Shown here: piece by piece, positions 1-17,429 of the stretch
Numbering within the stretch: the stretch's first letter is position 1
How the letters are laid out: every line of letters begins with the position of its first letter
UHGV virus genome: UHGV-1943956
Strand: one strand, 5' to 3'
DNA length: 17,807 nucleotides
Source: a virus
Notes under the pieces: model-generated
Databases searched by the model: none
What the model saw: only the letters and a program-made list of their open reading frames with translations
What the model was told of the DNA's origin: nothing
Position numbers and translations under genes: made by a program

Positions 1-189
1 ACAGGGGGATTCACCATGCCAGTTTCTTTTAACAAACTCCCCGCAAACCAGACAACAGTCAACCGCCTGAATTGTGAGGTATTTAAAAATTTCTCCAGAT
101 AACTGATACCCGGCTAACAGTCTGGCGTTTTCTTTTTCAGCAACGGGAAAGCAACAACCACCACACCCACCAGCAGCCCATTTACCACA

Positions 190-216
190 AATAAAAAAGC
201 CTTCAGGACTGAAGGT
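190..216 (-). terminator. Candidate intrinsic terminator after the 203-400 ORF
   Basis: On the minus strand a short GC-containing hairpin (plus-strand ccttcag..ctgaagg, ~201-216) is followed by a T-run (complement of the A-run at 192-198). Found by eye; no folding energy computed. Confidence 0.35.
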
Positions 217-400
217 GTCTGTAACAACCAAACTGATAGTCTGCCAGACCCGCCATAACAAGCTGGGTCAGTATTAACTGGCAGCGTTCGCGTGAAAGGT
301 AAGTATTCTGCGCTATCTCCCCGACTGTCGCCGGTTCGGTAACGCTTAATTCATTAAACACCACTCTGGCGGTTTCTGTCATATCCTGCTGTTTTAGCAT
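203..400 (-). CDS. Hypothetical small protein (65 aa from the ATG at 400), possible winged-helix DNA-binding fold
   Basis: Belongs to track ORF 203..487. The internal ATG at 400 has a purine-rich stretch (aaagggaaaaag) upstream and lies downstream of the candidate tR' hairpin. The segment TVGEIAQNTYLSRERCQLILTQLV looks like an HTH or winged helix. No family recognised. Confidence 0.4.
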   Translation of the reverse strand: MLKQQDMTETARVVFNELSVTEPATVGEIAQNTYLSRERCQLILTQLVMAGLADYQFGCYRHLQS

Positions 401-520
401 GTCTTTTTCCCTTTTCCGGTTAACGTGACACACCAATAACTCTTGTCGAAAAAGCCAGCAAGCTGAAAGACAGGTATTCACCGCCACCAGCGCGTTTACT
501 GTACTGACGCGATTTCAGTC

Positions 521-544
521 ATAAAAAACCCGCCAGGCGGCGGG
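521..544 (-). terminator. Intrinsic terminator, candidate tR' downstream of Q
   Basis: Minus strand reads CCCGCC-gcct-GGCGGG followed by TTTTTTAT: a 6-bp GC stem, 4-nt loop and U-tract. It sits about 80 bp downstream of the Q stop codon, where lambdoid phages place tR'. Confidence 0.55.
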
Positions 545-593
545 GTGTAAAAAATCTTCTAACGTCAGGCATAAAACGCCCATCGTTAGAGCA

Positions 594-621
594 AATTTAC
601 CACAGATTCGGGAAAAATCAA
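594..621 (-). promoter_or_regulatory. Candidate late promoter (PR'-like) with presumed qut region
   Basis: Minus strand has TTGATT (-35, ~621-616), a 16-bp spacer and TAAATT (-10, ~599-594), between the Q stop (627) and the hairpin at 544-521. Hexamers matched by eye only. Confidence 0.3.
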
Positions 622-626
622 CAACA

Positions 627-1448
627 CTATCGCGTTACCCTCTTTAACTGCCGCTCCGCCCATGCCTCTTCAATGTCAAACCGAACCACCAACGTATCGT
701 AAAAGCGTTTCACTGATTTTTTCCACGTATCAAGCGTGATAGCACTCGTCACTTTGCATATGGCATTAAATGCCTCCGTTGATGGCAGCCTTTCACAGCC
801 ACGACCACCACAACGCTGGCAATCTCTGATAACAGGCATACCACGTTTTACCGACTCTTCACGATGAATGGCGACACCACGCCCACGGCAATCCTTACAG
901 GCGGTGGAAACCTCACCCTTTCCGCCACACTCCGGACAGGCAACTTTTACCACCTCCCTGACTTTTTTCCATTCTTCCCAGTAAGACGGATACACGCCTT
1001 TTGTGCACTTTGCCCACACTGGTGGCTTACCATCCGGATACTGGATCTTGTTTGTAAAAACCTCGCTTTCAATAAATTTTTTTCCGTGACAGCAGGGGCA
1101 CTGTTTTTTGCTCGCCGCGCTACGGGCATAATCTTCAAACGCATACGAAGCCATAATGCGCATCACTACCGGTTTTATTTCTGCCGGAAGTTTTCTCAAC
1201 GCCGCCACACGATCGCACCGACTGAGTGCATAATCTGCCAGTAATTCTGTTGCCCGCGCCCTGTCATTCATACTGATGCCCATTTTCCCCAGGAACGCAG
1301 AAAACCCCATCTCAGCCCGATTCTGTGTCATGCCCTGCGCGGCCATCACATCAGTGATACTCAGCGCATCTTTTGACGTTGAGGCCGATACATCGGTCAG
1401 GCCAGGGGATTTTGGGGAGTAGTATTTCGGTAAATCTTCCAGTTTCAT
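627..1448 (-). CDS. Antitermination protein Q, long form (QuuQ-like) with four CxxCxGxG zinc-finger repeats
   Basis: 273-aa ORF whose ATG overlaps the rusA stop (ATGA). Contains CPCCHGKK, CPECGGKG, CKDCRGRG and CQRCGGRG. Follows DUF968 and rusA as in lambdoid nin-Q regions, and is followed by promoter and terminator candidates. Family call from recalled similarity to Qin-type Q proteins. Confidence 0.75.
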   Translation of the reverse strand: MKLEDLPKYYSPKSPGLTDVSASTSKDALSITDVMAAQGMTQNRAEMGFSAFLGKMGISMNDRARATELLADYALSRCDRVAALRKLPAEIKPVVMRIMASYAFEDYARSAASKKQCPCCHGKKFIESEVFTNKIQYPDGKPPVWAKCTKGVYPSYWEEWKKVREVVKVACPECGGKGEVSTACKDCRGRGVAIHREESVKRGMPVIRDCQRCGGRGCERLPSTEAFNAICKVTSAITLDTWKKSVKRFYDTLVVRFDIEEAWAERQLKRVTR

Positions 1449-1819
1449 TTTTTGACCTGCTCTTCATGCATTATGGGGTAAATCTTCACCCCCATACGTC
1501 CACCAGATACTGGCTGACCACGAACGATATTGATTTCATCAAACTGCTCATCGTCCATTAACACTCCCGCATGCGTCAGCGCATCCAGCGGTGCTTTCAG
1601 GATATTGTCCAGGTCGCGACGACGCTTATCCGGTGGCTCTGCAATCACCTTTATCGCCAGCCTTCCGGACAGGCTTAATTTCAGCCGCTGCTGGCGAACA
1701 ATAAGCGCCACAGCCCGGCGATAACGCTTTCCCTCCTCCGAGATAAAATATGTGCTGCCACGGCGTCGCCAGTAAGTGTTCACCGTCGGCGGGTAAGGTA
1801 AAACCAAATCTATGAGCAT
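1445..1819 (-). CDS. rusA: Crossover junction endodeoxyribonuclease RusA (Holliday junction resolvase)
   Basis: 124 aa. Carries the acidic-core motif PPDKRRRDLDNILKAPLDALTHAGVLMDDEQ typical of RusA. SD agaggtg upstream of the ATG at 1819. Conserved nin-region position. Confidence 0.85.
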   Translation of the reverse strand: MLIDLVLPYPPTVNTYWRRRGSTYFISEEGKRYRRAVALIVRQQRLKLSLSGRLAIKVIAEPPDKRRRDLDNILKAPLDALTHAGVLMDDEQFDEINIVRGQPVSGGRMGVKIYPIMHEEQVKK

Positions 1820-1831
1820 CAGTCACCTCTT

Positions 1832-2878
1832 TTACCCAAGCACGCCAGTTGCAAAGGCGTGATCAAGAAAACGAAAAATTAAATCAACCTGAGAACCATG
1901 CTTTTCTTCGAACGCCAGAGGATCCGCATGAAGCTCGTTGTGATGCTCCCGACACAGCGGTAGCGTGAAAATATCGTGAGATTTTGTCCCCATTCCGCCC
2001 TGACCATGACCAATCAGGTGATGGGGATCGTCGGCTGGCTTACCACAACACGCACACGGCTGTGTCTTCACCCAGCGTGTGTATTTCTCGTTAACCCAGC
2101 GGCGACGTTTAGGTCGTTTCATGAAAGATTCCGGAGACTCAGGATCAACGGCAATGCTGACCACCGTCTCTTCCTGTGGCGGGTTTTGCTGGTGGGCGTG
2201 AGGCAGCGGCGCAAGATTTTTTGTGCGCTGCTTCAGTATGCTGGTGGCGGTCTGCTCTCCCGGTACGATGTCGCTTTCACGGTACATTGAGCGGATTTTT
2301 TCCGCACGCAACCCCAGCGAACGACGTAATACCGCTTCCGGTAGCGCGTCCGCCACCTGATTGCGGACCGCCCACCAGGATAATTCAGCCAGCGATAATT
2401 CCCGCTCCTGCGAGCCATTCATTGCATGGCGTATGACGTCAATCATCCATGCAGACAGGTTTTGGTGAGCAAGTTGCCCGAGTGATTCGGAGGTCTGGTC
2501 GCGCAGCTGGTTGTCGCAGTGCCAGCACAACACCATTGCGCCGGTACCATAACGGTGAATGACGGTTTCACTGTGGTGATAATCGCCGTGTGGCCACTGG
2601 CAGGATTTAACATGGCGCAGTAACCAGTCAGACAATGCGCCAGCGCCACCAGCAGCACGAATCACTCGTTCGTCGCTGAAAAATGGCAGTAATGATTTAT
2701 CCTCCGCCAGCGGCTGGCGAACGGCAGGAACGACCCCGGACGGCAGATTACGCATGCTTTTCGGTTCCGGCTCCACCAGTACCCGGGTATTGTGGAATAC
2801 CGGCATGGATTCACGGCCCGGCTTAACGATCACCAGCCCGAGTTCCGGTACCAGAACAGGTCGAAGTAATACCCGCAC
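1832..2878 (-). CDS. DUF968-family protein (YdfU-like) with C-terminal Cys/His-rich HNH-like motif
   Basis: 348 aa with GTG start at 2878 preceded by ggagg. C-terminal block [28 protein letters not shown]...LCREHHNELH. Paralogous to 16423-17412. Confidence 0.8.
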   Translation of the reverse strand: MRVLLRPVLVPELGLVIVKPGRESMPVFHNTRVLVEPEPKSMRNLPSGVVPAVRQPLAEDKSLLPFFSDERVIRAAGGAGALSDWLLRHVKSCQWPHGDYHHSETVIHRYGTGAMVLCWHCDNQLRDQTSESLGQLAHQNLSAWMIDVIRHAMNGSQERELSLAELSWWAVRNQVADALPEAVLRRSLGLRAEKIRSMYRESDIVPGEQTATSILKQRTKNLAPLPHAHQQNPPQEETVVSIAVDPESPESFMKRPKRRRWVNEKYTRWVKTQPCACCGKPADDPHHLIGHGQGGMGTKSHDIFTLPLCREHHNELHADPLAFEEKHGSQVDLIFRFLDHAFATGVLG

Positions 2879-2879
2879 G

Positions 2880-3152
2880 TTACCTCCAGATGCGTTGCTG
2901 GAATGTGCGGGACGGACGCGGTGGGCGTTCAGAGTAAGGAAGCCTGACGGAGATTATCCAGTGACGATAATCGAGGCTGAGGGCTTTCTTAATCTCGTAT
3001 CCGCGTCTGCGGTAGTTATGAATTAGCCATTCGGCCTGTTCTTCAGTACATGGTGGGTGTTGGTACCAGTCGGTTTTAAATGCGTGTGAACGCCGCCCAT
3101 GCCGGATGGCAAGGTCGGTATCAGAATTGTGAAATTTGGTTTTGTGCGCCAT
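2880..3152 (-). CDS. Hypothetical 90-aa protein at the position Rem occupies in the Qin prophage
   Basis: ORF stop overlaps the DUF968 start region. Lies between hok and DUF968 as in the Qin order quuQ-ydfU-rem-hokD. I cannot confirm sequence identity to Rem from memory. Confidence 0.5.
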   Translation of the reverse strand: MAHKTKFHNSDTDLAIRHGRRSHAFKTDWYQHPPCTEEQAEWLIHNYRRRGYEIKKALSLDYRHWIISVRLPYSERPPRPSRTFQQRIWR

Positions 3153-3221
3153 CTGTTTTCTCTGCTGGCGCAGCAGGTGTCAGGTGTTCAGGCTGACGTG
3201 CGAATTGTAAACCAGAATGCC

Positions 3222-3250
3222 AGAAAAAAACAAAACCCGCCGAAGCGGGT
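3222..3250 (-). terminator. Intrinsic terminator downstream of hok
   Basis: Minus strand reads aaCCCGCttcgGCGGGttttgttttttt: a GC stem-loop followed by a long U-tract, about 70 nt after the hok stop codon. Confidence 0.55.
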
Positions 3251-3319
3251 TAAGTGCGGGTGCGTTGAGGATGCCTGACACATCAGAGGTGGCGAGGGAT
3301 TTCTCCCCCGCCAGGTCTC

Positions 3320-3475
3320 TTACTCCTCAGGTTCGTAAGCTGTGAAGACAGCGACCTCCGTCTGGCCGGTTCGGAGTCGTACCTCGCAGAGGTCTTTCCT
3401 CGTTACCAGTGCCGTCACTATGACGGTTAAACAGATGACGATCAGGGCGATTAACATCGCCTTTTGCTGCTTCAT
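3320..3475 (-). CDS. hokD: Hok-family type I toxin (HokD/RelF-like), 51 aa
   Basis: Hand translation of the reverse complement gives MKQQKAMLIALIVICLTVIVTALVTRKDLCEVRLRTGQTEVAVFTAYEPEE. This is a single transmembrane helix followed by the Hok signature LCEVR.R.G..EVA. SD aaggag lies 8 nt upstream. Absent from the ORF track because it is under 60 aa. Confidence 0.85.
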   Translation of the reverse strand: MKQQKAMLIALIVICLTVIVTALVTRKDLCEVRLRTGQTEVAVFTAYEPEE

Positions 3476-3488
3476 AGCCTGCTTCTCC

Positions 3489-3518
3489 TTGACCTTTCGG
3501 TCCGTAAGAGGCTAATCT
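3489..3518 (+). promoter_or_regulatory. Candidate promoter for a Sok-like antisense RNA
   Basis: Plus strand has TTGACC (3489-3494), an 18-bp spacer and TAATCT (3513-3518), directly upstream of and antisense to the hok translation-initiation region. This matches hok/sok architecture. The 3' end of the antisense RNA is undefined. Confidence 0.3.
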
Positions 3519-3733
3519 CTATGTGTCGCATAGATATGGCCTCAGATTAATGTTAAGCGTCTTGCAGGACGCGTAATGTTAACTGGGGCTTTTCTCTATC
3601 TGCCTTTTGGTGTTCATGCCTGAGACAGATAGCCTCAAGCACCCGCAGTTATTCTACTTAACTAAGATTTCCCCGCAAACCGTTTTTGTCCGGCACAGTA
3701 AATATCCAACTAAACCAATGGCGTTCGCTGTAT

Positions 3734-3952
3734 TTACCGCCAGTATTCAATGCACATGACCGCCATGAACACCCCTAAAAAAAGGGCATTTATATGTCCA
3801 AACATTAATATCAAAACATCAATTTTTTCCATATACCTTGCTGTGAAGATGATGGGCATACATGATGCGAACAACCAGAACGCAACAAACAAAAACTGCA
3901 ATGCGTTTTTCATTATTCCCCCTACAATCAATGTGCAATAACATTTAAACAC
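3734..3952 (-). CDS. Small hydrophobic membrane protein (72 aa) in an AT-rich island
   Basis: Strong SD (agggggaa) 5-6 nt upstream of the ATG at 3952. Sequence is highly hydrophobic with two predicted TM segments. Local AT content is clearly higher than the flanks. Confidence 0.5.
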   Translation of the reverse strand: MFKCYCTLIVGGIMKNALQFLFVAFWLFASCMPIIFTARYMEKIDVLILMFGHINALFLGVFMAVMCIEYWR

Positions 3953-4033
3953 ACCTCAATTTGGCCGGACATATAAATATCTAAACCAGAAAAAATCACT
4001 TACATAGCGTTACAAACTCTTTAGTCTAAATAT

Positions 4034-4549
4034 TCATCGTAAAACATCCTCCACGCTTATCAGTCCATTTCGTTTCAGGTAATCCATCGCCTTCTCCGGT
4101 AATTTGCAGTCCGGCTGAGCTTTTTTCAGTTGACTGACCAGTCGTTTAACCCACATTGTTAATTCGCTAACCTGATTGCCGGATGCTGGTGGATTGTCGG
4201 CTTTACCCAGAATGGCAGCGCAGCAGGCCTCTCTGAGCACCCAGTCAACAGCATCCTTCCATGCTCCTGTTTCGACTGGCGGATTCTCACGCTTTACCTG
4301 TTCATAAAAGCGCACGGCTTTAACCAGTCCTTCTGATGTCACCGGGACTGGCGGGCCGATGAATAAGGCCTGAATTTCATAGTTCGGCCTGTCGTTACAA
4401 TCCTCTTTTGTCGGTACATATTTCCAGTCACCAGCCCACGGCTTCCCCTGAAAGTCTGTAACGTCTTTTTTCACGTAGCGATATCGCCATGCAACTGGTT
4501 TTGCCTGCCCTGCCGTTTCATGCCCTTCCTGATAATTAATCTCGCTCAT
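4034..4549 (-). CDS. Ea22-like family protein, paralog 1
   Basis: 171 aa starting MSEINYQ, the N-terminal signature shared with 5459-5881 and 5878-6564 and resembling lambda Ea22. ATGA overlap with the upstream small ORF. Confidence 0.7.
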   Translation of the reverse strand: MSEINYQEGHETAGQAKPVAWRYRYVKKDVTDFQGKPWAGDWKYVPTKEDCNDRPNYEIQALFIGPPVPVTSEGLVKAVRFYEQVKRENPPVETGAWKDAVDWVLREACCAAILGKADNPPASGNQVSELTMWVKRLVSQLKKAQPDCKLPEKAMDYLKRNGLISVEDVLR

Positions 4550-4722
4550 TCATCGCCCCACTCATCACAATATGCTTCGACCGGAGTTTTTCCTGCTTCA
4601 TAATCATCACGCCATGCTTCAGCATCAGCAGCACTGCCACCACGTAACTCTGCATAGTCCATTAACAGTTCATGCCATGCTTCAAAACTGACGTTGTATT
4701 TAGTTGAACCAAAATCAGCCAT
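4546..4722 (-). CDS. Hypothetical small acidic protein (58 aa), not in the ORF track
   Basis: Hand translation gives MADFGSTKYNVSFEAWHELLMDYAELRGGSAADAEAWRDDYEAGKTPVEAYCDEWGDE. SD-like gaggaag upstream. Stop overlaps the next start (ATGA). Fills an otherwise empty 165-bp gap in a tightly packed operon. Confidence 0.4.
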   Translation of the reverse strand: MADFGSTKYNVSFEAWHELLMDYAELRGGSAADAEAWRDDYEAGKTPVEAYCDEWGDE

Positions 4723-4897
4723 TTTGCTCTTCCTCTTCGTCTTTTATTTCGTGATATGAGTAATTGCAGTAGTTAAAGAAAATATCTTTTGCTTCGTCAT
4801 GTATTTCATCAGGCGTCGCATCATCATCCACTTCGAATTCATCCTCGAAATCTCCACCGGCTATTTCCGTTTCAATAATTATTTTAAACTTTCGCAT
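4715..4897 (-). CDS. Hypothetical small acidic protein (60 aa)
   Basis: ORF within the leftward operon, rich in Asp/Glu. Its start is preceded by an unusual hairpin between the SD and the ATG. Confidence 0.45.
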   Translation of the reverse strand: MRKFKIIIETEIAGGDFEDEFEVDDDATPDEIHDEAKDIFFNYCNYSYHEIKDEEEEQNG

Positions 4898-4990
4898 TTA
4901 ACTACCGCCCTTTCGGGCGGCCTCCTGATGTTCTGAGGGTGCAGAAATCCCTCCGGTTAAGGATTAAATTTTTAACAGAGCTAAATTTAA

Positions 4991-5347
4991 TTATTCAGTT
5001 CTGGATTTTGTCGCCCTGCGTATCCGCGCTTTCGCGTTACGCTCAATCTGAATTAGCTTTTCTATATTTTTTCGCCTTTCCCGCTCCTCCTGGCGCAAGT
5101 GCCTTACATCATCTGCCAGTCTGGTTTCTCTTTTCGCCACAGAGAGCATCCAGTCAAATGGCTCCACAACTGCACCGCAGATTTTACAGCGGACCTGACG
5201 CTCTTTTTCGTCAACCCGGACAGAGGCGTGATGACAATATGGTCTTTCCGATGGCTCATAAAGAAAATTAACCTGATTACGAGGGTCATCCTCTTTTACC
5301 GGAAATAAAACGATATTGCTTAACTCATCCTCTGGTTTTATTTCCAT
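4991..5347 (-). CDS. Hypothetical protein with Cys/His zinc-ribbon-like motif (118 aa)
   Basis: Strong SD aaggagagg upstream of the ATG at 5347. Motif CHH...CKIC followed by a basic, coiled-coil-like C-terminus. Confidence 0.65.
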   Translation of the reverse strand: MEIKPEDELSNIVLFPVKEDDPRNQVNFLYEPSERPYCHHASVRVDEKERQVRCKICGAVVEPFDWMLSVAKRETRLADDVRHLRQEERERRKNIEKLIQIERNAKARIRRATKSRTE

Positions 5348-5458
5348 GCTCCTCTCCTTTGATGCGAATGCCAGAGACGCGTAATGCGTGTTCTAGGTCA
5401 ATCAGGTAAAGCCAACTGCCATTTTCTTTAGGTATCATGACTTGTCGCTCATCTGCAT

Positions 5459-5881
5459 TTATCGGGTGTCCATATCGAAGGTCGTAGCGAGTCGGTAATT
5501 GAACTTCCCGCGCTTCCAGTTCAGCAATACGCTTGCACCCATCAGAGATAACTCCCTCGTAATACTCGCGCTGCTCGTTGAGTTNNNNNNNNNNNNNNNN
5601 NNNNNNNNNNNNNNNNNNNNNNNNNNNNNNNNNNNNNNNNNNNNNNNNNNNNNNNNNNNNNNNNNNNNNNNNNNTCTTTCCCGTTCATCCAGTAGTGCCA
5701 GCACGGTTTCTGGTCCGGTCAGAAATTTGAAGGCATTGAGCGCATCAATATCCACACCGTAATCTTTAAGTTCCTGTTCACTTAACAAATCATCATCAGC
5801 TGGCAACATTAACAGGCGTTCCATTGCTGGAATTGCACGTTCCGCCACCTCACGCAGTGACTGGTAATTAATTTCGCTCAC
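5459..5881 (-). CDS. Ea22-like family protein, paralog 2, interrupted by an assembly gap
   Basis: GTG start preceded by aaggagg. N-terminus MSEINYQSLREVAE... and LALLDERER, which resembles lambda Ea22. The reading frame crosses a 90-nt N run, so the 3' part and true length are unverified. Confidence 0.45.
   Translation of the reverse strand: MSEINYQSLREVAERAIPAMERLLMLPADDDLLSEQELKDYGVDIDALNAFKFLTGPETVLALLDERERXXXXXXXXXXXXXXXXXXXXXXXXXXXXXXNSTSSASITRELSLMGASVLLNWKRGKFNYRLATTFDMDTR
5585..5674. other. Assembly gap (run of 90 N)
   Basis: Ninety consecutive ambiguous bases. The real length and sequence are unknown. Confidence 0.99.
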
Positions 5882-6564
5882 TGGTTGCCTCCTTTGCGAA
5901 GCTGGGCAGCAAAGTCAACTAACCACTCCGTCATTTCAACCTTCCCTACCAGGTCTGAACCAGGGTGCATACAGCAATCACTCTGCGCCGCTTTGAAATC
6001 CTTATACTCATATTCTTGGGCCACCAGATTTTTTGCAGCTTCTATAGCAGCATCCACCCCCTGCGCCCGGACTTCAGCCAGGAAAGCATCAGTGGTTGGC
6101 GTTTCAGGTATCTGTCTCCTCATCCGTTCTATTGCATGATTGAACCCGAAGTCTTCCGCGAGAGATACGTCATCCATATTGTCATTGTCATCCTCAATAT
6201 CCCGTGATTCTGGAATTGCAGACTTTATTCCTGCATTCTCCGCTGTCAGCGCCGCGCACTTGGCCTCAAGAGCGGCAACCACTTCCTGATGGTCTTTGTA
6301 CTTAACGTATGAGCCGGAGATGTCATCACCTTCGGTGTTTAGCCATGCGTCATTGCAATTCACTGCGTAGGTTCTGATGCTCATGTTGATGCTCTCCCGC
6401 CCCTGACAGACGCCAGGCCAGTCAATAAAGTATCCGCAATGCCTACCCTCAGACGTGCGCGCAGGATAAATGCCGTTATGACCCGGCATAATATATGCTA
6501 CCCATTCATCTTGCGTTGCCTGTTCCGCCGCCTCGCGCAGTGCCTGATAGTCAATCTTGCTCAC
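5878..6564 (-). CDS. Ea22-like family protein, paralog 3
   Basis: 228 aa with GTG start preceded by aaggagg. N-terminus MSKIDYQALREAAEQATQDEW resembles lambda Ea22. Its stop overlaps the start of paralog 2 (GTGA). Confidence 0.7.
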   Translation of the reverse strand: MSKIDYQALREAAEQATQDEWVAYIMPGHNGIYPARTSEGRHCGYFIDWPGVCQGRESINMSIRTYAVNCNDAWLNTEGDDISGSYVKYKDHQEVVAALEAKCAALTAENAGIKSAIPESRDIEDDNDNMDDVSLAEDFGFNHAIERMRRQIPETPTTDAFLAEVRAQGVDAAIEAAKNLVAQEYEYKDFKAAQSDCCMHPGSDLVGKVEMTEWLVDFAAQLRKGGNQ

Positions 6565-6865
6565 TGGCAGCCTCCTTTGCCGGGATTTCTAACTTTTGAG
6601 TGGTTGTATCAAATTCAAACAACTTAACCACGTCATCAAACAGGACATAATCACCATCAGGATCTTCAGTCATATCTGCGCCACAATCCTGACCGCACGA
6701 GTCGCAACCATCCATATCAAGCTCGTATCGCTTCAGGTTTGCGATATTTGATAAATTCAGCGCCAGTACAGCCAGGTCATAAACCTCTTCGGCAGTGACA
6801 TCGCTGTTCAGTCCCATTTCATGGCGATATATGATTTTTTCTACTCGTTGTTTTGTGATCGTCAT
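6551..6865 (-). CDS. Hypothetical protein (104 aa from the ATG at 6865)
   Basis: Track ORF 6551..6889 begins at a TTG. The ATG at 6865 has a ggag SD upstream. The C-terminal region is acidic with a CDSCGQDCG motif. Start choice is uncertain; ATG 6817 is an alternative. Confidence 0.45.
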   Translation of the reverse strand: MTITKQRVEKIIYRHEMGLNSDVTAEEVYDLAVLALNLSNIANLKRYELDMDGCDSCGQDCGADMTEDPDGDYVLFDDVVKLFEFDTTTQKLEIPAKEAASEQD

Positions 6866-7136
6866 TTTTCTCTTCACTCCGATATACAAGGATTACTACA
6901 CCCCCTCTGCTGATTGCGCGAGCTGGATCCCCTGGTTCCATGCCGTCAATTCCGAAGGCTTCGGAAAACGCATTCATTGCCTTCTGGCGTTCATCCTGCT
7001 TACGGCGTTTATTCCATTTTTTCAGGAACAACAGCGACAGCCACCGTCCGCTGCAGAACACGATGTAAAAATAACCAAGGAGCGCCAGGCCGACATTCAG
7101 GGCCGTTTCTATGGTTAGTTGTGAGTCAGTTGCCAT
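6819..7136 (-). CDS. Hypothetical single-pass membrane protein (105 aa)
   Basis: Hydrophobic segment LNVGLALLGYFYIVFCSG followed by a basic KKWNKRRKQDERQK stretch. SD-like aggtaag upstream. Confidence 0.5.
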   Translation of the reverse strand: MATDSQLTIETALNVGLALLGYFYIVFCSGRWLSLLFLKKWNKRRKQDERQKAMNAFSEAFGIDGMEPGDPARAISRGGVVILVYRSEEKNDDHKTTSRKNHISP

Positions 7137-7374
7137 TTCTTACCTGTTTAAGTAACTGGTTGAACATAACACTTAGGGGATTGCTGTATCCAAACGGCAG
7201 ATTGTTTACGCAGTACAGAATCATTTTGTTTTTTTCTCCAGTTCGTACTATTAACCCATTCCACAATAACCGTGATAATTCATTACTGATAGAAGTTGCG
7301 CTTCTTCCAAGTGCGAGGGATATATCTTCTCTACTGCAATCTGGATTTTCCTGGATATACTCGATAACGGTCAT
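7126..7374 (-). CDS. Hypothetical small protein, possible winged-helix DNA-binding (82 aa)
   Basis: The ATG at 7374 has SD aaaggga 6 nt upstream, which I prefer over the track start at 7416 that has no SD. Segment SREDISLALGRSATSISNELSRLL is HTH-like. Confidence 0.5.
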   Translation of the reverse strand: MTVIEYIQENPDCSREDISLALGRSATSISNELSRLLWNGLIVRTGEKNKMILYCVNNLPFGYSNPLSVMFNQLLKQVRNGN

Positions 7375-7384
7375 GTGGTCCCTT

Positions 7385-7966
7385 TTACTTAATATCTGTT
7401 TCGGATTGCATGCCATGAGTATTCATTTCGTTAATAATTTCATCCAGAAGGATTTCAAGCCCTTCTCGACCCATATCTGAAAGAATGAAACCTTTATCAG
7501 GGGAAGTAGTGAGCATTTTCTGATAAAGAAACAGCGCTCTTCCCATTCCTTCAGTTTCGCCGTATTTTTGAATTAAATTCCATTCAATATACTGTTGTAA
7601 GGCAAATCGAATGGGGCCGGGATATATCGTCATAAACCCATACATCCCGTTATATACCACGGCGTGTTCAGTTGTTCCGTGTTCATTCAGGATATCAATT
7701 GTGCCGTTCTTGTCTTCTTCTTCGTTGATGAATGTCGTCACATACAACCATCGCCACTGAGCAACCTTCATCTCAACCGGAAGTTTACCCAGTAATCCTG
7801 CTTCGTCGGCTTGCGCCAGACACTGAAGGATACGTAAACCTCGCACATTAGGAGTATCGAATTCTCCGGCATCCAGACGACGTATGGCGTCGTGATAATC
7901 AATCGTCATACTGCCAGTTCGTATACCATTGGCTGTTGCTTCAGCCTGGAATTCATCGTATTGCAT
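7385..7966 (-). CDS. Hypothetical protein (193 aa), no recognisable family
   Basis: SD gagga upstream of the ATG at 7966. Starts 5 nt after the stop of the upstream 62-aa acidic ORF. Confidence 0.6.
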   Translation of the reverse strand: MQYDEFQAEATANGIRTGSMTIDYHDAIRRLDAGEFDTPNVRGLRILQCLAQADEAGLLGKLPVEMKVAQWRWLYVTTFINEEEDKNGTIDILNEHGTTEHAVVYNGMYGFMTIYPGPIRFALQQYIEWNLIQKYGETEGMGRALFLYQKMLTTSPDKGFILSDMGREGLEILLDEIINEMNTHGMQSETDIK

Positions 7967-7971
7967 GATAT

Positions 7972-8160
7972 TTATTCCTCATCTTCATCTTCATCTGCTG
8001 GTGCAATAACGTCATATCCTGCCTTTTCTGCAATAAACAGGAATGTTGAAAGAGTTCCTACAAGTTCATCGTCATGAACATGGCGAATGAATATTACTTT
8101 CCCGTTTTTGATGGTCAGCAATATTCTGGTTTGTTCGTGTTCTGCTGTTTTCTGATGCAT
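7972..8160 (-). CDS. Hypothetical small protein with polyacidic C-terminal tail (62 aa)
   Basis: SD gggag upstream. C-terminus APADEDEDEE. Immediately precedes the 193-aa gene. Confidence 0.5.
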   Translation of the reverse strand: MHQKTAEHEQTRILLTIKNGKVIFIRHVHDDELVGTLSTFLFIAEKAGYDVIAPADEDEDEE

Positions 8161-8354
8161 TATTATCTCCCGTATGCTTTACGCAGAAATAAGCAGGCAA
8201 TATGCATGTAATTTTCACCGTATTGTGCAATAAGGCAGGCGGTCTTGTGTGATGCCATATTCTTTATAAAAGTCACAATAAAGCCTCCTGTGGTTTAAGG
8301 TTGTAACAATCCCCGGCGATAAAACCGCAATAAACGTTCAAGGCATATTTGTTG

Positions 8355-8720
8355 TTATTGCGCTAATTCTTTTTCGGCAGCAGCTTTTGTATACTCACAT
8401 GCAAAACTCAGAATTTCGCTGCCGAGTGTTTTCGTTTCGTGATTACTGGACATATGTAATACCTGTGTTGCATGCAATAAATGATAAACATTTACCGCAA
8501 ATGAATCAGGCTCCAGGCAAATGCCTTCGTAATTATCTTGCTGTGAGGTTGTTTCTGTCATTGCTCCTGAAGTGCATACGAGCCTGTTTTTGACAATTCT
8601 CTTTTCTCTAATCACTATATCGGCAACATCTATTGCCTTTACAACCTCCGGGAGAAGTTCCGGGTTTGTATAATCAAAGTCATCAACATGGAGAACAGTT
8701 ATGTTTTCGAACTTTTTCAT
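8355..8720 (-). CDS. Hypothetical protein (121 aa)
   Basis: SD gagga 5 nt upstream of the ATG at 8720. No family recognised. Confidence 0.55.
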   Translation of the reverse strand: MKKFENITVLHVDDFDYTNPELLPEVVKAIDVADIVIREKRIVKNRLVCTSGAMTETTSQQDNYEGICLEPDSFAVNVYHLLHATQVLHMSSNHETKTLGSEILSFACEYTKAAAEKELAQ

Positions 8721-8848
8721 GGTTTCCTCAGCTGACTTATATGTTCTGCTATATAGCGAGTCTCAGAAGTGTTTTCATATTGAGACTGTTTCCGCAATGA
8801 TTGATAAAAATGTTCGCATGTACCTTGAGGGGCGAAGCGGCGATTATG

Positions 8849-9352
8849 TCACCATTGGTATTGGTTCTTCCGTAGAAGAGCTTCGCGAGATAAGGGGCAA
8901 ACTTGTTGAGATGCGTCATGGTGTTGCTGCTCCTCACTTTTTGGTTGCTCCGGAGGAGTAACCTCACCAGTTAACAGCCACATCGGATCGCAGCCAAGAA
9001 TATTTGCCAGTGGGATAAGCATACTGATAGTTGGTTCATACTCTCCGCTCTCCCACTGGATGATAATTTCTTCATCGAGATCGAGCAGCCTGGCGAGTTC
9101 GGCGGTTGTTAAGCCGCAGGCTTCGCGTTGGGTGCGAAGACGGGTGTTGATTGCAGAATTTTTGTTCTGTAAAAGCATTGCTGACGATAGCTTTCTGGAT
9201 ATGCTATTTGTCATATCCCATGCCAGTCCTGCGCATGACTCTATATCGCTAGAGAGCGTAGCATCAGGTGTTGCTTTTGCTATTAGTGTAATGAGGCTGC
9301 CGAGGTTTTTCAGTTCTTCGAGACAGTCAAGAGTTGTAGCTTTATTGATCAT
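8849..9352 (-). CDS. HTH (XRE-type) DNA-binding protein with N-terminal extension (167 aa); first gene after the left operator
   Basis: Central HTH segment LRTQREACGLTTAELARLLDLDEEIIIQWESGEYEPTISMLIPLANILG. SD-like gaggt upstream of the ATG at 9352. The internal ATG at 9178 is an alternative start. Confidence 0.55.
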   Translation of the reverse strand: MINKATTLDCLEELKNLGSLITLIAKATPDATLSSDIESCAGLAWDMTNSISRKLSSAMLLQNKNSAINTRLRTQREACGLTTAELARLLDLDEEIIIQWESGEYEPTISMLIPLANILGCDPMWLLTGEVTPPEQPKSEEQQHHDASQQVCPLSREALLRKNQYQW

Positions 9353-9392
9353 GAGATGATACCTCAGTTACGAACTTTGTTTTATGGTAACT

Positions 9393-9431
9393 AAGGTATC
9401 AAGGTGTGGCAAGTGATTTTTGATACTTTGG
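9393..9431. promoter_or_regulatory. Left operator/promoter region (OL/PL-like)
   Basis: Inverted pair AAGGTATCAA (9393-9402) and TTGATACTTTGG (9420-9431) shares the TTGATAC core with the sites near OR. It lies directly downstream of the repressor gene and upstream of the leftward operon. Candidate -35 and -10 hexamers on the minus strand overlap it. Confidence 0.45.
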
Positions 9432-9455
9432 TTTCTTTTTGTGTTTTGTGTCTGG

Positions 9456-10112
9456 TCAGAAAATATCCCACCTGGCATCAACCACAACACCTACTATTTC
9501 GCAATCATTGTCCATTTCTATGATTGGATATTGTGGATTAAGGGGCTTTAGAAACGCCTTTCCCATGTCAGAAATATATTTTTTGAATGTTGCTTCATTG
9601 GTAGATTTTTTTCTGGCGATGACGTAACACCCTGAAAAAACTTCTTTATCTGGGTTGACAAGGATCGACATTCCTTCAGGAAATGTTATTCCTACGGGCG
9701 AAGTCATTGAGTCTCCGTGCACTTCCAGCCAGAACCCCCTCTCACCAGCGTATTTTACAGAATGCCTCCAATTATCCTGATCATACATGTTGTAGTCATC
9801 ACCAGAAGTTGCGAATAATCCTGCCTGAACCCAGTTAATTACAGGGTAAGAGTGTGCTGTGTCTCTCTGTGGGCAGCTCTTAACATTATTTTCCCAATGC
9901 TTATCTTTTTCATCTCCGTTCTGAAGCCACTGCGGTGAACACCGCAGTGCAGCTGCAACTTTAAAAAGGGTGTCACCGTTGAAACTTTTTGTAAGGCCTT
10001 GCTCGGCTTTACTGATTGCAACTCTGGTGATCCCAGCTTTTTTAGCCAACGCATCTTGTGTTAACCCAGCTTTTTGCCGTGCGTTGATGAGACGTTCACC
10101 TAAAGACTTCAT
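9456..10112 (-). CDS. CI/LexA-type phage repressor (N-terminal HTH_XRE, C-terminal S24 peptidase)
   Basis: The ATG at 10112 has SD aggag 7 nt upstream. HTH segment LTQDALAKKAGITRVAISKAEQG. Ala-Gly candidate cleavage site in VQAGL. S24 catalytic motifs GDSM (Ser) and FKKY (Lys). Flanked on both sides by operator repeats. Confidence 0.85.
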   Translation of the reverse strand: MKSLGERLINARQKAGLTQDALAKKAGITRVAISKAEQGLTKSFNGDTLFKVAAALRCSPQWLQNGDEKDKHWENNVKSCPQRDTAHSYPVINWVQAGLFATSGDDYNMYDQDNWRHSVKYAGERGFWLEVHGDSMTSPVGITFPEGMSILVNPDKEVFSGCYVIARKKSTNEATFKKYISDMGKAFLKPLNPQYPIIEMDNDCEIVGVVVDARWDIF

Positions 10113-10134
10113 TTTTCTTCTCCTCTCATGGCTG

Positions 10135-10208
10135 TTGATACTAAAGTAACAGAATTTCTTGATACTTTGGATTCCTGTGGTTAACATCGTTGAATAACAA
10201 AGTATCTG
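10135..10208. promoter_or_regulatory. Right operator/promoter region (OR with divergent PR and PRM-like promoters)
   Basis: Three copies of the operator core: TTGATACTAAAG (10135-10146), TTGATACTTTGG (10159-10170) and an inverted GATACTTTG (10198-10206). A plus-strand candidate PR has TTGATA (10159-10164), a 17-bp spacer and TAACAT (10182-10187). Confidence 0.5.
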
Positions 10209-10223
10209 GTGTGAGACTAAAGA

Positions 10224-10451
10224 ATGACCCTTTATGAAATATTAAAAATTCAATTTAAAACCAATGCCGCTATTGGTCGCAGGTTCCCAAAGAAAGGAAG
10301 GCCTCGTGGCAGTCAAGGTGTTGGAAAGTGGAAAACGCGAGGTGTTCCGGAGGATGTTGCCATTCTTTGTCATCTGGATCCGAGCATTCCATATACACAC
10401 CCAAGTCTAGCGAATACAGAAGATGACAAGCCCACAGGAGACCAACAATGA
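10224..10451 (+). CDS. Hypothetical small basic protein at the cro position (75 aa)
   Basis: Its stop overlaps the start of the next gene (ATGA). It has a weak SD and no obvious HTH, and could instead be an untranslated leader. Confidence 0.3.
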   Translation: MTLYEILKIQFKTNAAIGRRFPKKGRPRGSQGVGKWKTRGVPEDVAILCHLDPSIPYTHPSLANTEDDKPTGDQQ

Positions 10452-11155
10452 ACACCGCAATTTTTAACGGCAAAGCATCCATGACCAGCGTTGAGATCGC
10501 AGAGCTGGTGGGAAGCCGACCAGATAGTGTTAAGAGAACTATTGAAACACTGGCTAAAAAGGGAATCATCCAATTTCCACAGACTGTGGAAATTGAGAAT
10601 AAACAATCACTTGGGCCTCGCCGATTTTCTAGCGCGTATGTATTCGAAGGTGAACGAGGTAAGCGCGACAGCATCATTGTCGTCGCACAGCTCTGTCCTG
10701 AATTCACATCTCGCCTGGTAGATCGCTGGCGCGAACTGGAAGAACAGATCCGTAAGCCAATGAGCGAAATCGAAATGGTTGCCGCGATGGCTCTTGAAGC
10801 CGTTCGCCAACAGAAACGGATCACTCAGGTGGAAGAAAAAGTCAGCCACGTTGCTGAAACAGTCGAGCAAATTAAAAAGGGCACTATTCGTGAGGGCTAT
10901 GCCGGATATCGCCAACTGAAAGCAAAAACCGGTTTGTCAGATGATAAATGCCGCAATCTGGTGAACGCCTATCAAATTCCTACAGACACCCATGAGTTCA
11001 TGACGCCGGACGGATTGTTGTCACGTCGCGCAATTGTTGCTGTGGAACCGTTTATGGCTGCTTTTTATCGGGTTATGGAGGAAGCAGAACCGCGAGGGAC
11101 TCGCTGGTATCACCCGAAAATGGGGTTATTTCAGGTTATTGGTTGGCAGCGGTGA
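10448..11155 (+). CDS. Putative phage regulatory protein with Rha-like N-terminal DNA-binding domain (235 aa)
   Basis: SD aggag 9 nt upstream. N-terminal MTSVEIAELVGSRPDSVKRTIETL matches the pattern of the Rha N-terminus seen in the next gene. Confidence 0.6.
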   Translation: MNTAIFNGKASMTSVEIAELVGSRPDSVKRTIETLAKKGIIQFPQTVEIENKQSLGPRRFSSAYVFEGERGKRDSIIVVAQLCPEFTSRLVDRWRELEEQIRKPMSEIEMVAAMALEAVRQQKRITQVEEKVSHVAETVEQIKKGTIREGYAGYRQLKAKTGLSDDKCRNLVNAYQIPTDTHEFMTPDGLLSRRAIVAVEPFMAAFYRVMEEAEPRGTRWYHPKMGLFQVIGWQR

Positions 11156-11343
11156 AAAAAAGCCGGGAGTAACCCGGCTCACTCAACATCAATAACGGGG
11201 AGCTGTTTCGCATAAAACGGCTCCGAAACATCCAAGAACAGTTCTAAAGATATCAGCAGCTATATGATCATTTCAAGACCAAATATTGATTCTGCAATTT
11301 CGGGACGTTACACTGTCTCCGCACCTTATAAAGCGGGTGCCGG

Positions 11344-11369
11344 GATTGGCGTCCTGAAATTCGCACATG
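11344..11369. repeat. Direct repeat copy 1 (GATTGGCGTCC...AAATTCGCACATG)
   Basis: GATTGGCGTCC at 11344-11354 and AAATTCGCACATG at 11357-11369. Both segments recur at 11509-11549. Confidence 0.6.
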
Positions 11370-11374
11370 CGCAT

Positions 11375-11397
11375 AACCGCGCTTCAGCGGTTTTTTT
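11375..11397 (+). terminator. Candidate intrinsic terminator inside the rightward operon
   Basis: AACCGC-gcttca-GCGGTT stem-loop followed by TTTTT, lying between the two direct-repeat copies. Confidence 0.4.
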
Positions 11398-11508
11398 GCG
11401 CACGTTTCCTCACATCCAAATTATGGTGGGGCGTGCAGGGGCATCGAAAGATGCGCCGGGGTCATGTGCGACCGGTTACGCCAACCCTGTACGTCTCACC
11501 ACCTCTGT

Positions 11509-11549
11509 GATTGGCGTCCCATGTGGTGAGTTTTCAAAATTCGCACATG
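11509..11549. repeat. Direct repeat copy 2 (with 15-nt insertion)
   Basis: GATTGGCGTCC at 11509-11519 and AAATTCGCACATG at 11537-11549, ending 12 nt before the Rha start codon. Confidence 0.6.
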
Positions 11550-11560
11550 AGGATGTCACT

Positions 11561-12112: not shown

Positions 12113-12303
12113 TTAGTTACGAAATCATCATCTCCACTACGGAATACAGAAACGATGTATCAGTTCGCACGGATGTATCTGTCTGGCACCGTCGCTATAA
12201 ATCCAGAAAAACAGCGGAACTGAAAGCGGCAGAGATGTGTGAAACCATCTCAATGAAAGGTAGCCCGGTTAAATACGTAACTACGGCGGAGGTGCGTCCA
12301 TGA
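12109..12303 (+). CDS. Hypothetical small protein (64 aa)
   Basis: ATGA overlap with the Rha stop. Part of a tightly coupled operon. Confidence 0.5.
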   Translation: MISYEIIISTTEYRNDVSVRTDVSVWHRRYKSRKTAELKAAEMCETISMKGSPVKYVTTAEVRP

Positions 12304-13809: not shown

Positions 13810-13819
13810 GGTGACAGCG

Positions 13820-17412: not shown

Positions 17413-17429
17413 TTTTGTGGAGAAAGTTG

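What the first reader, a model, noticed from the sequence alone, without database searches (positions are those of the whole stretch)
3222..3620. Unannotated hok/sok-like type I toxin-antitoxin locus inside the early-left operon
The ORF track misses a 51-aa Hok-family toxin at 3320-3475 (minus) because of its size. It has a strong SD, an intrinsic terminator downstream (3222-3250), and a plus-strand TTGACC-N18-TAATCT promoter (3489-3518) oriented antisense to the hok translation-initiation region, where a Sok-like RNA would start. Unlike K-12 hokD, which sits next to relBE, this copy keeps its upstream leader and so may be a functional post-segregational killing or abortive-infection module. 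I could not identify a convincing overlapping mok frame or the 3' end of the antisense RNA.
Basis: partly seen in the sequence, partly recalled or inferred. Interest (0 to 1): 0.55.

Follow-up and report, generated by a model that had tools for sequence, protein, structure and literature searches.

The report
Complete prophage hok/mok/sok toxin-antitoxin module

Summary
Window 3475-3320 (-) encodes a 51-aa Hok toxin (Pfam HOK_GEF, E 6e-23; PHROG "MokW-like host killing", E 4e-33).

The 172 nt upstream match the whole Rfam hok-leader model RF01794 (106.7 bits, positions 1-157 of 157). So the leader is intact, unlike K-12 hokD, where homology starts only at the hok Shine-Dalgarno (SD).

I located every canonical element:
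- the hok promoter -10 box
- tac, ucb, dcb and fbi
- a mok leader ORF
- the Sok promoter and a 69-nt Sok RNA (3525-3593) with a terminator hairpin

Folding reproduces the published full-length/truncated conformational switch. Sixteen diverse loci show compensatory changes that support it.

The locus is about 99.5% identical to loci annotated hokD in many E. coli genomes. It is 91% identical to hokW-sokW of 933W/Sp5, which has been validated experimentally.

Its native context is the nin/Q region of the early-right operon. It lies downstream of early-left genes here only because the window is chimeric near 5350.

Verdict: correct identification, already known, low interest.

The parts
3674..3679 (-). 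Candidate hok/mok promoter -35 box (TTTGCG), a weak match
   Evidence: Sequence. It lies 17 nt upstream of the -10 box. It is conserved in 933W but not in more distant loci.
3651..3656 (-). hok/mok promoter -10 box (TAGAAT)
   Evidence: A TAnnnT-type hexamer sits at a fixed 6-7 nt upstream of the conserved GGGYGC 5' end in all 17 loci compared. The sequence further upstream is unrelated between loci.
3224..3644 (-). Predicted full-length mok-hok mRNA, about 421 nt
   Evidence: The 5' end is taken from position 1 of RF01794 and from alignment with 933W and R1-type loci. The 3' end is the intrinsic terminator. The minimum-free-energy (MFE) fold is -175 kcal/mol, z -8.4. Covariation across 16 loci supports the fold.
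3633..3644 (-). tac (translational activator element), GGGUGCUUGAGG
   Evidence: It pairs with fbi in the full-length fold. It pairs with ucb in the 3'-truncated fold. Three pairs of the tac/fbi helix show compensatory changes.
3583..3590 (-). ucb (upstream complementary box, the anti-SD of mok), AGCCCCAG
   Evidence: It pairs with the mok SD region in the full-length fold and with tac in the truncated fold. This helix is 90% paired across 16 loci, with 5 compensatory pairs (helix 4).
3540..3543 (-). mok Shine-Dalgarno (GAGG)
   Evidence: It lies 8 nt upstream of the mok ATG. GAGGC is invariant in 16 loci.
3472..3531 (-). mok leader ORF: 19 codons (MRHIEISLLRTERSRRSRL), with a UGA stop that overlaps the hok AUG (cuAUGAag)
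   Evidence: The ATG aligns with mokW of 933W. The start sits at -56, -57 or -58 in almost all relatives compared.
3508..3514 (-). dcb (downstream complementary box), uaGCCUC
   Evidence: It pairs with the mok SD (GAGGC) in the truncated-mRNA fold, forming the Sok target hairpin. GCCUCUUAC is invariant or nearly so.
3485..3490 (-). hok Shine-Dalgarno (AAGGAG)
   Evidence: Homology with K-12 hokD begins at this point.
3320..3475 (-). hok CDS: 51-aa membrane toxin with a hydrophobic helix at about residues 6-24, Cys15, Cys30 and Tyr47 (codon inside the TACG motif)
   Evidence: Pfam PF01848 E 6.3e-23. phrog_251 E 4e-33. It differs from K-12 HokD by one residue (I34L) and is 46/51 identical to HokW.
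3291..3312 (-). Stable 3' stem-loop (GGCGGGGGAGAAAUCCCUCGCC), the likely protective 3' end of the processed (truncated) mRNA
   Evidence: It is predicted in both folds and conserved with compensatory changes (helices 17-18). Its role is inferred from the R1 model (PMC9841398).
3258..3270 (-). fbi (fold-back inhibition element), CCUCAACGCACCC
   Evidence: It is complementary to tac with one bulge and pairs with it in the MFE fold. In 17 of the 19 loci compared it lies 45-56 nt after the hok stop, and it co-varies with tac (U-A to C-G, G-C to A-U).
3224..3251 (-). Intrinsic terminator of the hok mRNA (stem 3251-3234, T run 3233-3224)
   Evidence: also conserved in K-12 hokD.
3489..3518 (+). Sok promoter: TTGACC (3489-3494), N18, TAATCT (3513-3518)
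   Evidence: It aligns with the sokW promoter of 933W (TTGCCT...TAACCT) and with that of an R1-type plasmid (TTGCGC...TATCCT). Mutating the sokW promoter abolished antitoxin activity (PMC8621323).
3525..3593 (+). Predicted Sok antisense RNA, about 69-73 nt: a 13-nt 5' tail, a long hairpin (3538-3590), then a U-rich tail (UUUUCUCU to 3597)
   Evidence: The annotated sokW (AF125520) maps to 3525-3593. The fold is -32.2 kcal/mol, z -5.6. The RNA is complementary to the mok start codon, the mok SD and ucb.

Best explanation
Window 3224-3679 is a structurally complete hok/mok/sok type I toxin-antitoxin module. It belongs to the prophage hokD/hokW lineage and most likely works like the R1 paradigm.

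Proposed mechanism:
1. A weak constitutive promoter (-10 box TAGAAT) makes a mok-hok mRNA of about 420 nt.
2. In the full-length RNA the 5' tac element pairs with the 3' fbi element. The ucb box sequesters the mok SD, so the RNA is neither translated nor bound by Sok.
3. Slow 3' trimming removes fbi. tac then pairs with ucb, and the mok SD moves into a hairpin with dcb. That hairpin presents the mok start region.
4. Ribosomes that translate the 19-codon mok ORF run through the hok SD and terminate on a UGA overlapping the hok AUG. This allows hok to be translated.
5. Hok, a 51-aa inner-membrane peptide, then depolarises the membrane and kills the cell.
6. A convergent promoter makes the roughly 69-nt Sok RNA. 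Sok is complementary to the mok start and SD, blocks mok translation (and therefore hok translation), and marks the duplex for degradation.
7. When Sok synthesis stops, the stable processed hok mRNA is translated. Sok synthesis would stop on loss of the element, on a transcription block, or on prophage induction.

What is shown here: sequence homology, all the elements, both predicted conformations and covariation.

What is inferred: expression, the relative RNA stabilities, toxicity, and the physiological role. The role shown for the closest characterised homologue is help with host lysis and phage release after induction. Prophage maintenance and phage exclusion remain possible.
For: - Toxin: Hok family.
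- Leader: full-length RF01794 match on the hok strand, ending at the hok AUG. The validated 933W locus scores 113.5 bits and an R1-type locus 87.2 bits. The leaderless K-12 hokD gives no hit.
- Full-length fold: tac/fbi closure and ucb/mok-SD pairing, z -8.4.
- Truncated fold: deleting the 3' end switches the MFE fold to tac/ucb plus mok-SD/dcb. This is the switch described for R1 (PMC9841398).
- Covariation in 16 loci from Escherichia, Kluyvera, Pseudocitrobacter, Photorhabdus, Pantoea and an R1-type plasmid: 87% of cells are paired, against 38-46% when partners are slid. 37 pairs have changes on both sides, against 12-17 when slid. 0 of 500 shuffles reach the observed values.
- mok: the SD and ATG are conserved in position. 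Published mutagenesis shows mok translation is needed only as far as the hok initiation region (PMC9841398).
- Sok: the promoter, start site and terminator hairpin are homologous to annotated sokW.
- Homologue: hokW-sokW (91% DNA identity, Hok 46/51) has been shown to be a working type I TA with an effect on lysis and phage release (PMC8621323).
- Prevalence: the same allele occurs at about 99.5% identity in many E. coli genomes and in 9 of 80 sampled phage contigs.
Against: - Nothing was measured for this copy: no transcript, toxicity or stability data.
- The Sok -10 box is a poor consensus match (3 of 6) with an 18-nt spacer, and a generic scan does not find it.
- The mok ORF is 19 codons rather than the roughly 70 of R1 and 933W. 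Coupling by termination and reinitiation is inferred, not shown.
- Hok has Tyr, not Cys, at position 47. For K-12 hokD the recoding of this Tyr to Cys by mRNA editing is reported as low, 6% (PMC12214031).
- The chromosomal loci hokA, hokB and hokC were reported not to mediate PSK (cited in bioRxiv 10.1101/2025.08.07.668861).
- The structure I tested for covariation was derived from the window sequence itself, which inflates the 'paired' measure relative to the slid controls.
Confidence: 0.88

Rival explanations
1. The locus is structurally intact but physiologically silent: a passenger in prophages that makes too little active Hok to matter. Possible causes are weak promoters, the shortened mok, and the need for Tyr47-to-Cys mRNA editing.
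For: [quoted passage not shown]
- hokD editing is reported at only 6% in K-12 (PMC12214031).
- Both promoters match the consensus poorly.
- Only 9 of 80 sampled phage contigs carry the 19-codon mok allele.
Against: - All regulatory helices are maintained by compensatory changes across genera. That argues for selection on regulated expression of a dangerous product.
- The 91%-identical hokW-sokW is toxic, is neutralised by its Sok, and has a phenotype on induction (PMC8621323).
- Diverse Hok homologues were toxic wherever they were encoded (abstract of bioRxiv 10.1101/2025.08.07.668861).
- The CDS is intact, and its first 100 nt are identical to 933W.
Confidence: 0.25
2. The 19-codon mok is a frameshift remnant that uncouples or weakens hok translation, so this allele is a decaying copy of the in-frame 70-codon mokW-type locus.
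For: - Relative to 933W the mok region has a 2-nt deletion and a 1-nt insertion.
- 69 of 80 close phage-borne relatives have the 70-codon in-frame mok.
Against: - The indels fall in hairpins whose pairing is preserved (CUAUG/CAUAG and GACC/GGUC here, against UGCC/GGCA in 933W).
- The ORF still runs through the hok SD and stops exactly on the hok AUG.
- An independent -56, 19-codon mok with a different sequence occurs in E. ruysiae and E. whittamii loci.
- All three relative frames occur among relatives, so the Mok peptide is not conserved anyway.
- R1 mutagenesis shows that translation beyond the hok start is dispensable (PMC9841398).
- The allele is widespread at about 99.5% identity.
Confidence: 0.1
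3. It is a chance small ORF with a fortuitous SD and terminator, not a gene.
For: None beyond its small size. ORF lists at this length contain many spurious frames.
Against: - Pfam E 6e-23, PHROG E 4e-33 and Rfam leader E 9e-24.
- Homologues are found in 4939 of 5426 E. coli genomes.
Confidence: 0.01

Closest known systems
hokW-sokW (mokW/hokW/sokW) of Stx2 phage 933W / Sakai prophage Sp5
   Same: - 91% DNA identity over the mRNA, and Hok 46/51 identical.
- The same tac, ucb, mok SD and ATG, dcb and fbi elements.
- The Sok promoter and Sok RNA align position for position: sokW maps to window 3525-3593.
- The leader scores similarly in Rfam (113.5 against 106.7 bits).
- It is carried by a lambdoid prophage.
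   Different: - mokW is a 70-codon in-frame N-terminal extension of hokW. Here mok is 19 codons in another frame and stops on the hok AUG.
- The Sok -35/-10 boxes are TTGACC/TAATCT with an 18-nt spacer here, against TTGCCT/TAACCT with 17 nt in 933W.
- In 933W the locus lies near attR, after the late genes. Here and in most relatives it lies upstream of rem-like, DUF968, RusA and Q.
- The terminator region is unrelated.
hokD (relF) of E. coli K-12 cryptic prophage Qin
   Same: - The CDS differs by one nucleotide (I34L).
- The 3' UTR, including fbi and the terminator, is nearly identical.
- The downstream neighbours are the same: rem, ydfU (DUF968) and a Q-like gene.
   Different: - K-12 homology starts at the hok SD, and relE/relB lie upstream.
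- tac, ucb, mok, the Sok gene and the Sok -10 box are all missing.
- There is no RF01794 hit.
- The window copy has the full leader.
hok/sok (parB) of plasmid R1 and other IncF plasmids, the mechanistic paradigm
   Same: - The architecture and order of all elements are the same.
- The predicted full-length and truncated conformations are the same (PMC9841398).
- The leader matches the same Rfam model.
- mok starts 56-58 nt before hok.
- The Sok promoter overlaps the hok SD region.
   Different: - The Hok protein is only distantly similar (HokW and R1 Hok are 44% identical, per PMC8621323).
- The R1 leader has an extra insertion of about 16 nt.
- R1 mok is about 70 codons.
- The carrier is a plasmid with demonstrated PSK, not a prophage.

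Membership tests
[quoted passage not shown] | Small (about 50 aa) hydrophobic Hok/Gef-family toxin | tested here: met
   Pfam PF01848 E 6.3e-23, covering profile positions 1-42 of 42. phrog_251 E 4e-33.
[quoted passage not shown] | Long structured 5' leader of the hok mRNA, homologous to known loci | tested here: met
   RF01794 at 106.7 bits (gathering score 59), model positions 1-157 of 157, not truncated, on the hok strand and ending at the AUG. Positive controls are 933W and an R1-type plasmid; the negative control is K-12 hokD.
[quoted passage not shown] | Long-range tac (5') and fbi (3') pairing that closes the full-length mRNA | tested here: met
   It is present in the MFE fold. It is 12 bp with one bulge. 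fbi lies 45-56 nt after the stop in 17 of the 19 loci compared, with compensatory U-A/C-G and G-C/A-U changes.
[quoted passage not shown] | Conformational switch after 3' trimming: ucb releases the mok SD, and tac/ucb and SD/dcb stems form | tested here: met
   In silico only. The full-length fold pairs ucb with the mok SD. The fold of 3644-3283 pairs tac with ucb and GAGGC with GCCUC. Actual processing cannot be tested here.
[quoted passage not shown] | mok leader ORF with its own SD, whose translation reaches the hok initiation region | tested here: met
   The mok ATG is at 3531 with a GAGG SD 8 nt upstream. The ORF is 19 codons and its UGA overlaps the hok AUG. It differs from the classical 70-codon overlapping mok. 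The published requirement is translation only up to the hok SD and start (PMC9841398).
[quoted passage not shown] | Cis-encoded antisense Sok RNA (about 65-70 nt) with its own promoter, complementary to the mok initiation region | tested here: met
   These are sequence features only. The promoter is homologous to the sokW and R1 promoters. The RNA has a 5' tail, a hairpin and a U tract, z -5.6. Annotated sokW maps to 3525-3593. Expression was not tested.
[quoted passage not shown] | Hok toxicity neutralised by Sok; a stable toxin mRNA and a labile antitoxin RNA; killing when Sok synthesis stops | not testable with these tools
   Shown only for homologues: hokW-sokW (PMC8621323) and R1 (PMC9841398).
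K-12-type truncated hokD (relF) downstream of relBE | No leader, mok or sok; relE immediately upstream of the hok SD | tested here: not met
   The window has the full leader. K-12 aligns only from AGGAGAAGCAGGCTATG onward. RefSeq nevertheless names near-identical full-length loci 'hokD'.

The most novel reading that the evidence does not exclude
The module sits sense-oriented inside a prophage early operon, just upstream of rem-like, DUF968, RusA and Q. At induction, antiterminated early transcription would run through the locus head-on against the Sok promoter. That could switch Sok off and supply extra hok message. hok/sok would then act as an induction-coupled helper of lysis rather than as a maintenance or exclusion device. 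The 19-codon mok ending in AUGA would be a distinct termination-reinitiation form of mok-hok coupling.
Probability: 0.2. Interest if true: 0.4.

Novelty: already known. Interest (0 to 1): 0.1.

Why it matters
Mainly for annotation.
- Genome pipelines label only the hok CDS (as 'hokD') and leave out mok, Sok and the mRNA boundaries. This report gives all of them for a very common E. coli prophage allele.
- The comparison also shows that the mok start is fixed 56-58 nt before hok while its reading frame varies among close relatives (in frame, overlapping out of frame, or a 19-codon ORF). This agrees with published evidence that translation of mok, not the Mok peptide, is what matters.
- A recent survey of Hok diversity left mok unanalysed because it is hard to call.
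- None of this changes what is understood about hok/sok.

Tried and rejected
- Generic promoter scan: it did not report either the Sok or the hok promoter. Both rest on positional homology, not on consensus strength.
- Rfam search for a Sok model on the plus strand: none exists. RF01794, named 'sok', actually models the hok-sense leader, and it hit the hok strand in all 22 loci with a hit. A permissive Rfam scan of 3150-3760 added only sub-threshold noise (isrK-like at 27 bits over the 3' UTR hairpins, a snoRNA, CRISPR repeats).
- tac/fbi duplex energy against mononucleotide shuffles: not discriminating, because the 3' UTR is GC-rich. I relied instead on conserved position and compensatory changes.
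- Distant DNA search of plasmids: it did not reach R1-type hok/sok. I retrieved an R1-type locus through the Hok protein instead.
- Pedersen & Gerdes 1999: I could not find the paper in the library and cite it only through later papers.
- Readings considered and rejected: a chance ORF, a K-12-type truncated hokD, and a long overlapping mok frame (absent here; the frame closes at the hok start).

Full report

Yes.
- The minus strand carries a 51-aa ORF at 3475-3320. It matches the whole Pfam Hok/Gef profile (E 6.3e-23) and the phage family phrog_251, "MokW-like host killing" (E 4e-33).
- AAGGAG lies 9 nt before its ATG.
- An intrinsic terminator follows, with a stem at 3251-3234 and a T run at 3233-3224.
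- By consensus this promoter is weak. The -10 box matches at 3 of 6 positions, and the generic scan did not list it. Its support comes from homology, described below.
- The strongest evidence against chance is the Rfam covariance model RF01794. It matches 3644-3473 (-) over its full length (positions 1-157 of 157) at 106.7 bits, against a gathering score of 59.
- RF01794 is named "sok", but it models the hok-sense leader. It ends on the hok AUG, and it hit the hok strand in every locus where it matched.

**2. Anatomy**

hok/mok mRNA (minus strand):
- The -10 box TAGAAT is at 3656-3651. A TAnnnT hexamer sits 6-7 nt upstream of the conserved GGGYGC 5' end in all 17 loci compared, although the sequence further upstream is unrelated between them.
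- The predicted mRNA runs from about 3644 to about 3224.
- Its elements are: tac 3644-3633; ucb 3590-3583; mok SD GAGG 3543-3540; mok ORF 3531-3472; dcb 3514-3508; hok SD 3490-3485; hok CDS 3475-3320; a stable 3' stem-loop 3312-3291; fbi 3270-3258; terminator 3251-3224.

Sok RNA (plus strand):
- The Sok promoter is at 3489-3518.
- The GenBank annotation of sokW in phage 933W (AF125520) maps, through the alignment, to window 3525-3593. That is 69 nt ending in GGGGCUUUU.
- This RNA folds into a 13-nt single-stranded 5' tail and a long hairpin (3538-3590), followed by UUUUCUCU. The fold is -32.2 kcal/mol, z -5.6.

**3. The missing mok**

- The ATG at 3531-3529 has a GAGG SD 8 nt upstream and aligns with the mokW start of 933W.
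- In the window the frame runs for 19 codons (MRHIEISLLRTERSRRSRL). It stops at a UGA that overlaps the hok AUG (cuAUGAag). At 19 codons it also falls below the 20-aa minimum of the ORF listing used here.
- Across relatives the mok start is fixed 56, 57 or 58 nt before hok, and all three relative frames occur:
  - in frame, giving a 70-codon N-terminally extended Hok (933W and most phage copies);
  - out of frame, with a long overlap of 55-69 codons;
  - the 19-codon form (the window, E. coli strain 4/0, and, with a different sequence, E. ruysiae and E. whittamii).
- Among the 80 closest IMG/VR loci, 69 have the in-frame form, 9 have exactly the window's form together with its TTGACC...TAATCT Sok promoter, and 2 have no leader.
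- Saturation mutagenesis of R1 hok/sok showed that mok must be translated up to the hok initiation region, and that translation beyond the hok start is dispensable (PMC9841398).
- A 19-codon mok that reads through the hok SD and terminates on the hok start is therefore compatible with function. This is an inference, not a test.

**4. RNA mechanics**

- Full-length RNA (3644-3224): the MFE fold pairs the first 12 nt (tac) with CCUCAACGCACCC (fbi). It also pairs ucb with the mok SD region. The z-score is -8.4, and 0 of 100 shuffles fold as well.
- After removing the 3' end (3644-3283), the MFE fold switches. tac now pairs with ucb, and the mok SD GAGGC pairs with the dcb GCCUC. This forms a hairpin whose apical loop is complementary to the Sok 5' end.
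- This is the closed-to-open switch described for R1 (PMC9841398).
- I aligned 16 diverse loci: E. coli, E. albertii, E. ruysiae, Kluyvera, Pseudocitrobacter, unnamed Enterobacteriaceae, Photorhabdus, Pantoea, 933W and an R1-type IncF plasmid.
- On that alignment the full-length structure is kept in 87.1% of cells, against 38-46% when partners are slid. It has 37 pairs with changes on both sides, against 12-17 when slid and 17.6 ± 2.9 in shuffles. 0 of 500 shuffles reach the observed values.
- The tac/fbi helix has three compensatory pairs, for example U-A to C-G in Photorhabdus, Pantoea and R1.
- Caveat: the structure came from the window sequence itself, which favours it over the slid controls on the "paired" measure.

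**5. Relation to known loci**

- The 611-nt region is about 99.5% identical, over its full length, to loci whose CDS RefSeq annotates as "type I toxin-antitoxin system toxin HokD". Examples are ETEC H10407, EC958 and JJ1886.
- 2391 of 5426 complete E. coli genomes hold at least 80% of the region, and 482 records match at 99% or better.
- It is 91% identical to mokW/hokW/sokW of phages 933W and VT2-Sakai.
- HokW-SokW has been shown experimentally to be a type I TA (PMC8621323):
  - HokW is toxic.
  - sokW, expressed from its own promoter, neutralises it.
  - Mutating that promoter abolishes the protection.
  - After mitomycin C, sokW RNA disappears and HokW accumulates in the inner membrane.
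  - Phage release halves when the locus is deleted.
K-12 hokD aligns only from AGGAGAAGCAGGCTATG onward, with relE immediately upstream, and it gives no RF01794 hit.
- The window's Hok differs from K-12 HokD only by I34L. Fourteen IMG/VR contigs encode the identical 51-aa protein.
- A recent survey found Hok in almost 80% of Enterobacteriaceae genomes and enriched in prophages (bioRxiv 10.1101/2025.08.07.668861).

**6. Context**

- In E. coli 4/0, O104:H4 and K-12 Qin, hokD lies on the cro side of the immunity region. It sits downstream of the replication genes and directly upstream of a rem-like gene, DUF968, RusA and the Q antiterminator. That is the nin/Q part of the early-right operon.
- Among the 80 phage contigs, the rem-like gene follows hok on the same strand in 69, DUF968 in 61 and RusA in 47.
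- The window has the same block on the minus strand: rem-like 3152-2880, DUF968 2878-1832, RusA 1819-1445, Q 1448-627.
- From 5352 rightward, however, the window is 99.6% identical to the mlrA-integrated prophage of E. coli CE10. This stretch holds that phage's early-left genes on the minus strand, a LexA-like repressor at 10187-9456 (-), and then cro-like, Rha, replication and a second DUF968 gene on the plus strand.
- The switch falls inside Ead/Ea22-like genes. These occur in the early-left operon of CE10 and in the nin region of O104:H4-type prophages.
- So "inside the early-left operon" describes the geometry of this recombinant window, not the module's usual home.
- No complete E. coli genome in the collection holds 80% or more of the whole window in one place.

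**7. Function**

- I commit to the R1-type regulatory mechanism with high confidence. Every defining sequence and structure feature that can be tested in silico is met.
- The physiological role is uncertain. The only direct evidence for a prophage-borne close homologue points to help with lysis and phage release after induction (PMC8621323).
- R1 hok/sok on a high-copy plasmid partly excludes T4 (cited in PMC8621323).
- The chromosomal loci hokA, hokB and hokC did not mediate PSK (cited).
- The hok Tyr47 codon sits in a TACG motif (3340-3332, GCUUACGAA). That is the context in which TadA edits hokC, hokD and hokE mRNAs to encode Cys, reportedly at 6% for K-12 hokD (PMC12214031). This may add a further layer of control. 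In the predicted full-length ensemble the ACGAA bases are unpaired.

**8. Verdict**

The locus is a common, already described prophage hok/sok module. Novelty: already known. Interest: low.

Noticed in passing
window 11321-11397 (+) and 11419-11506 (+), inside ORF 11264-12112 (+): Rfam finds an isrK Hfq-binding RNA (62.3 bits) and a C4 antisense RNA (75.1 bits) in tandem. Both lie inside the N-terminal 'Ash' part of an ORF that RefSeq annotates as a 282-aa Rha-family regulator. This looks like a P1/P7-type c4 or Gifsy-type isrK control region ahead of an antirepressor-like gene. Either the RNA genes and the CDS truly overlap, or the N-terminus of the annotated CDS (and the Pfam Ash family hit) is a translated RNA gene.
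   Followed up: partly
window ~5350 (junction); 1-5351 versus 5352-17789: The window is a chimera of two lambdoid prophage types joined inside Ead/Ea22-like genes. A nin/Q block (hok, rem-like, DUF968, RusA, Q) lies where the CE10-type prophage has xis/int. As a result there are two DUF968 genes in opposite orientation (1832-2878 - and 16417-17412 +), and a Q antiterminator lies downstream of the early-left genes. No complete E. coli genome in the collection contains the whole arrangement.
   Followed up: partly
window 3700-4100, ORF 3734-3952 (-): An AT-rich island (34-39% GC, against about 50% on either side) lies directly upstream of the hok promoter. It holds a 72-aa strongly hydrophobic ORF with no Pfam or PHROG match. 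It could be a small membrane-protein moron or non-coding spacer.
   Followed up: partly
window 3332-3340 (-), hok codon 47: Tyr47 of Hok is encoded within GCUUACGAA, which carries the TACG motif of TadA A-to-I editing. [quoted passage not shown] The Tyr and the TACGA context are invariant in all 16 aligned loci. The ACGAA bases are predicted to be unpaired in the full-length mRNA.
   Followed up: partly
window 3099-3278 (+): RefSeq relatives annotate a 59-aa 'hypothetical protein' (WP_001112736.1 in strain 4/0) on the strand opposite hok. It overlaps the hok terminator, the fbi element and the start of the rem-like gene. It is probably a spurious call over the hok 3' UTR.
   Followed up: no
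Rfam RF01794, hits at window 3644-3473 (-) and in 21 related loci: The Rfam family named 'sok antitoxin (CssrC)' matches the hok-sense strand and ends at the hok AUG in every case. In practice it is a model of the hok mRNA leader, and the Sok RNA is its partial reverse complement. Annotations that transfer its name and strand would place 'sok' on the wrong strand.
   Followed up: yes
L029 771-940 and 1333-1503 (Enterobacteriaceae MGYG-HGUT-00110): Two full-length RF01794 hits lie about 560 nt apart on the same strand, which suggests tandem hok loci in this genome.
   Followed up: no
L020 (Acinetobacter idrijaensis), L024 (Xanthomonas pisi), L052 (Candidatus Scatousia MAG): Near-identical hokD sequences sit on very short contigs (275 nt, 431 nt and 2995 nt) of assemblies from unrelated taxa. 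They look like E. coli or phage contamination rather than genuine occurrences.
   Followed up: no
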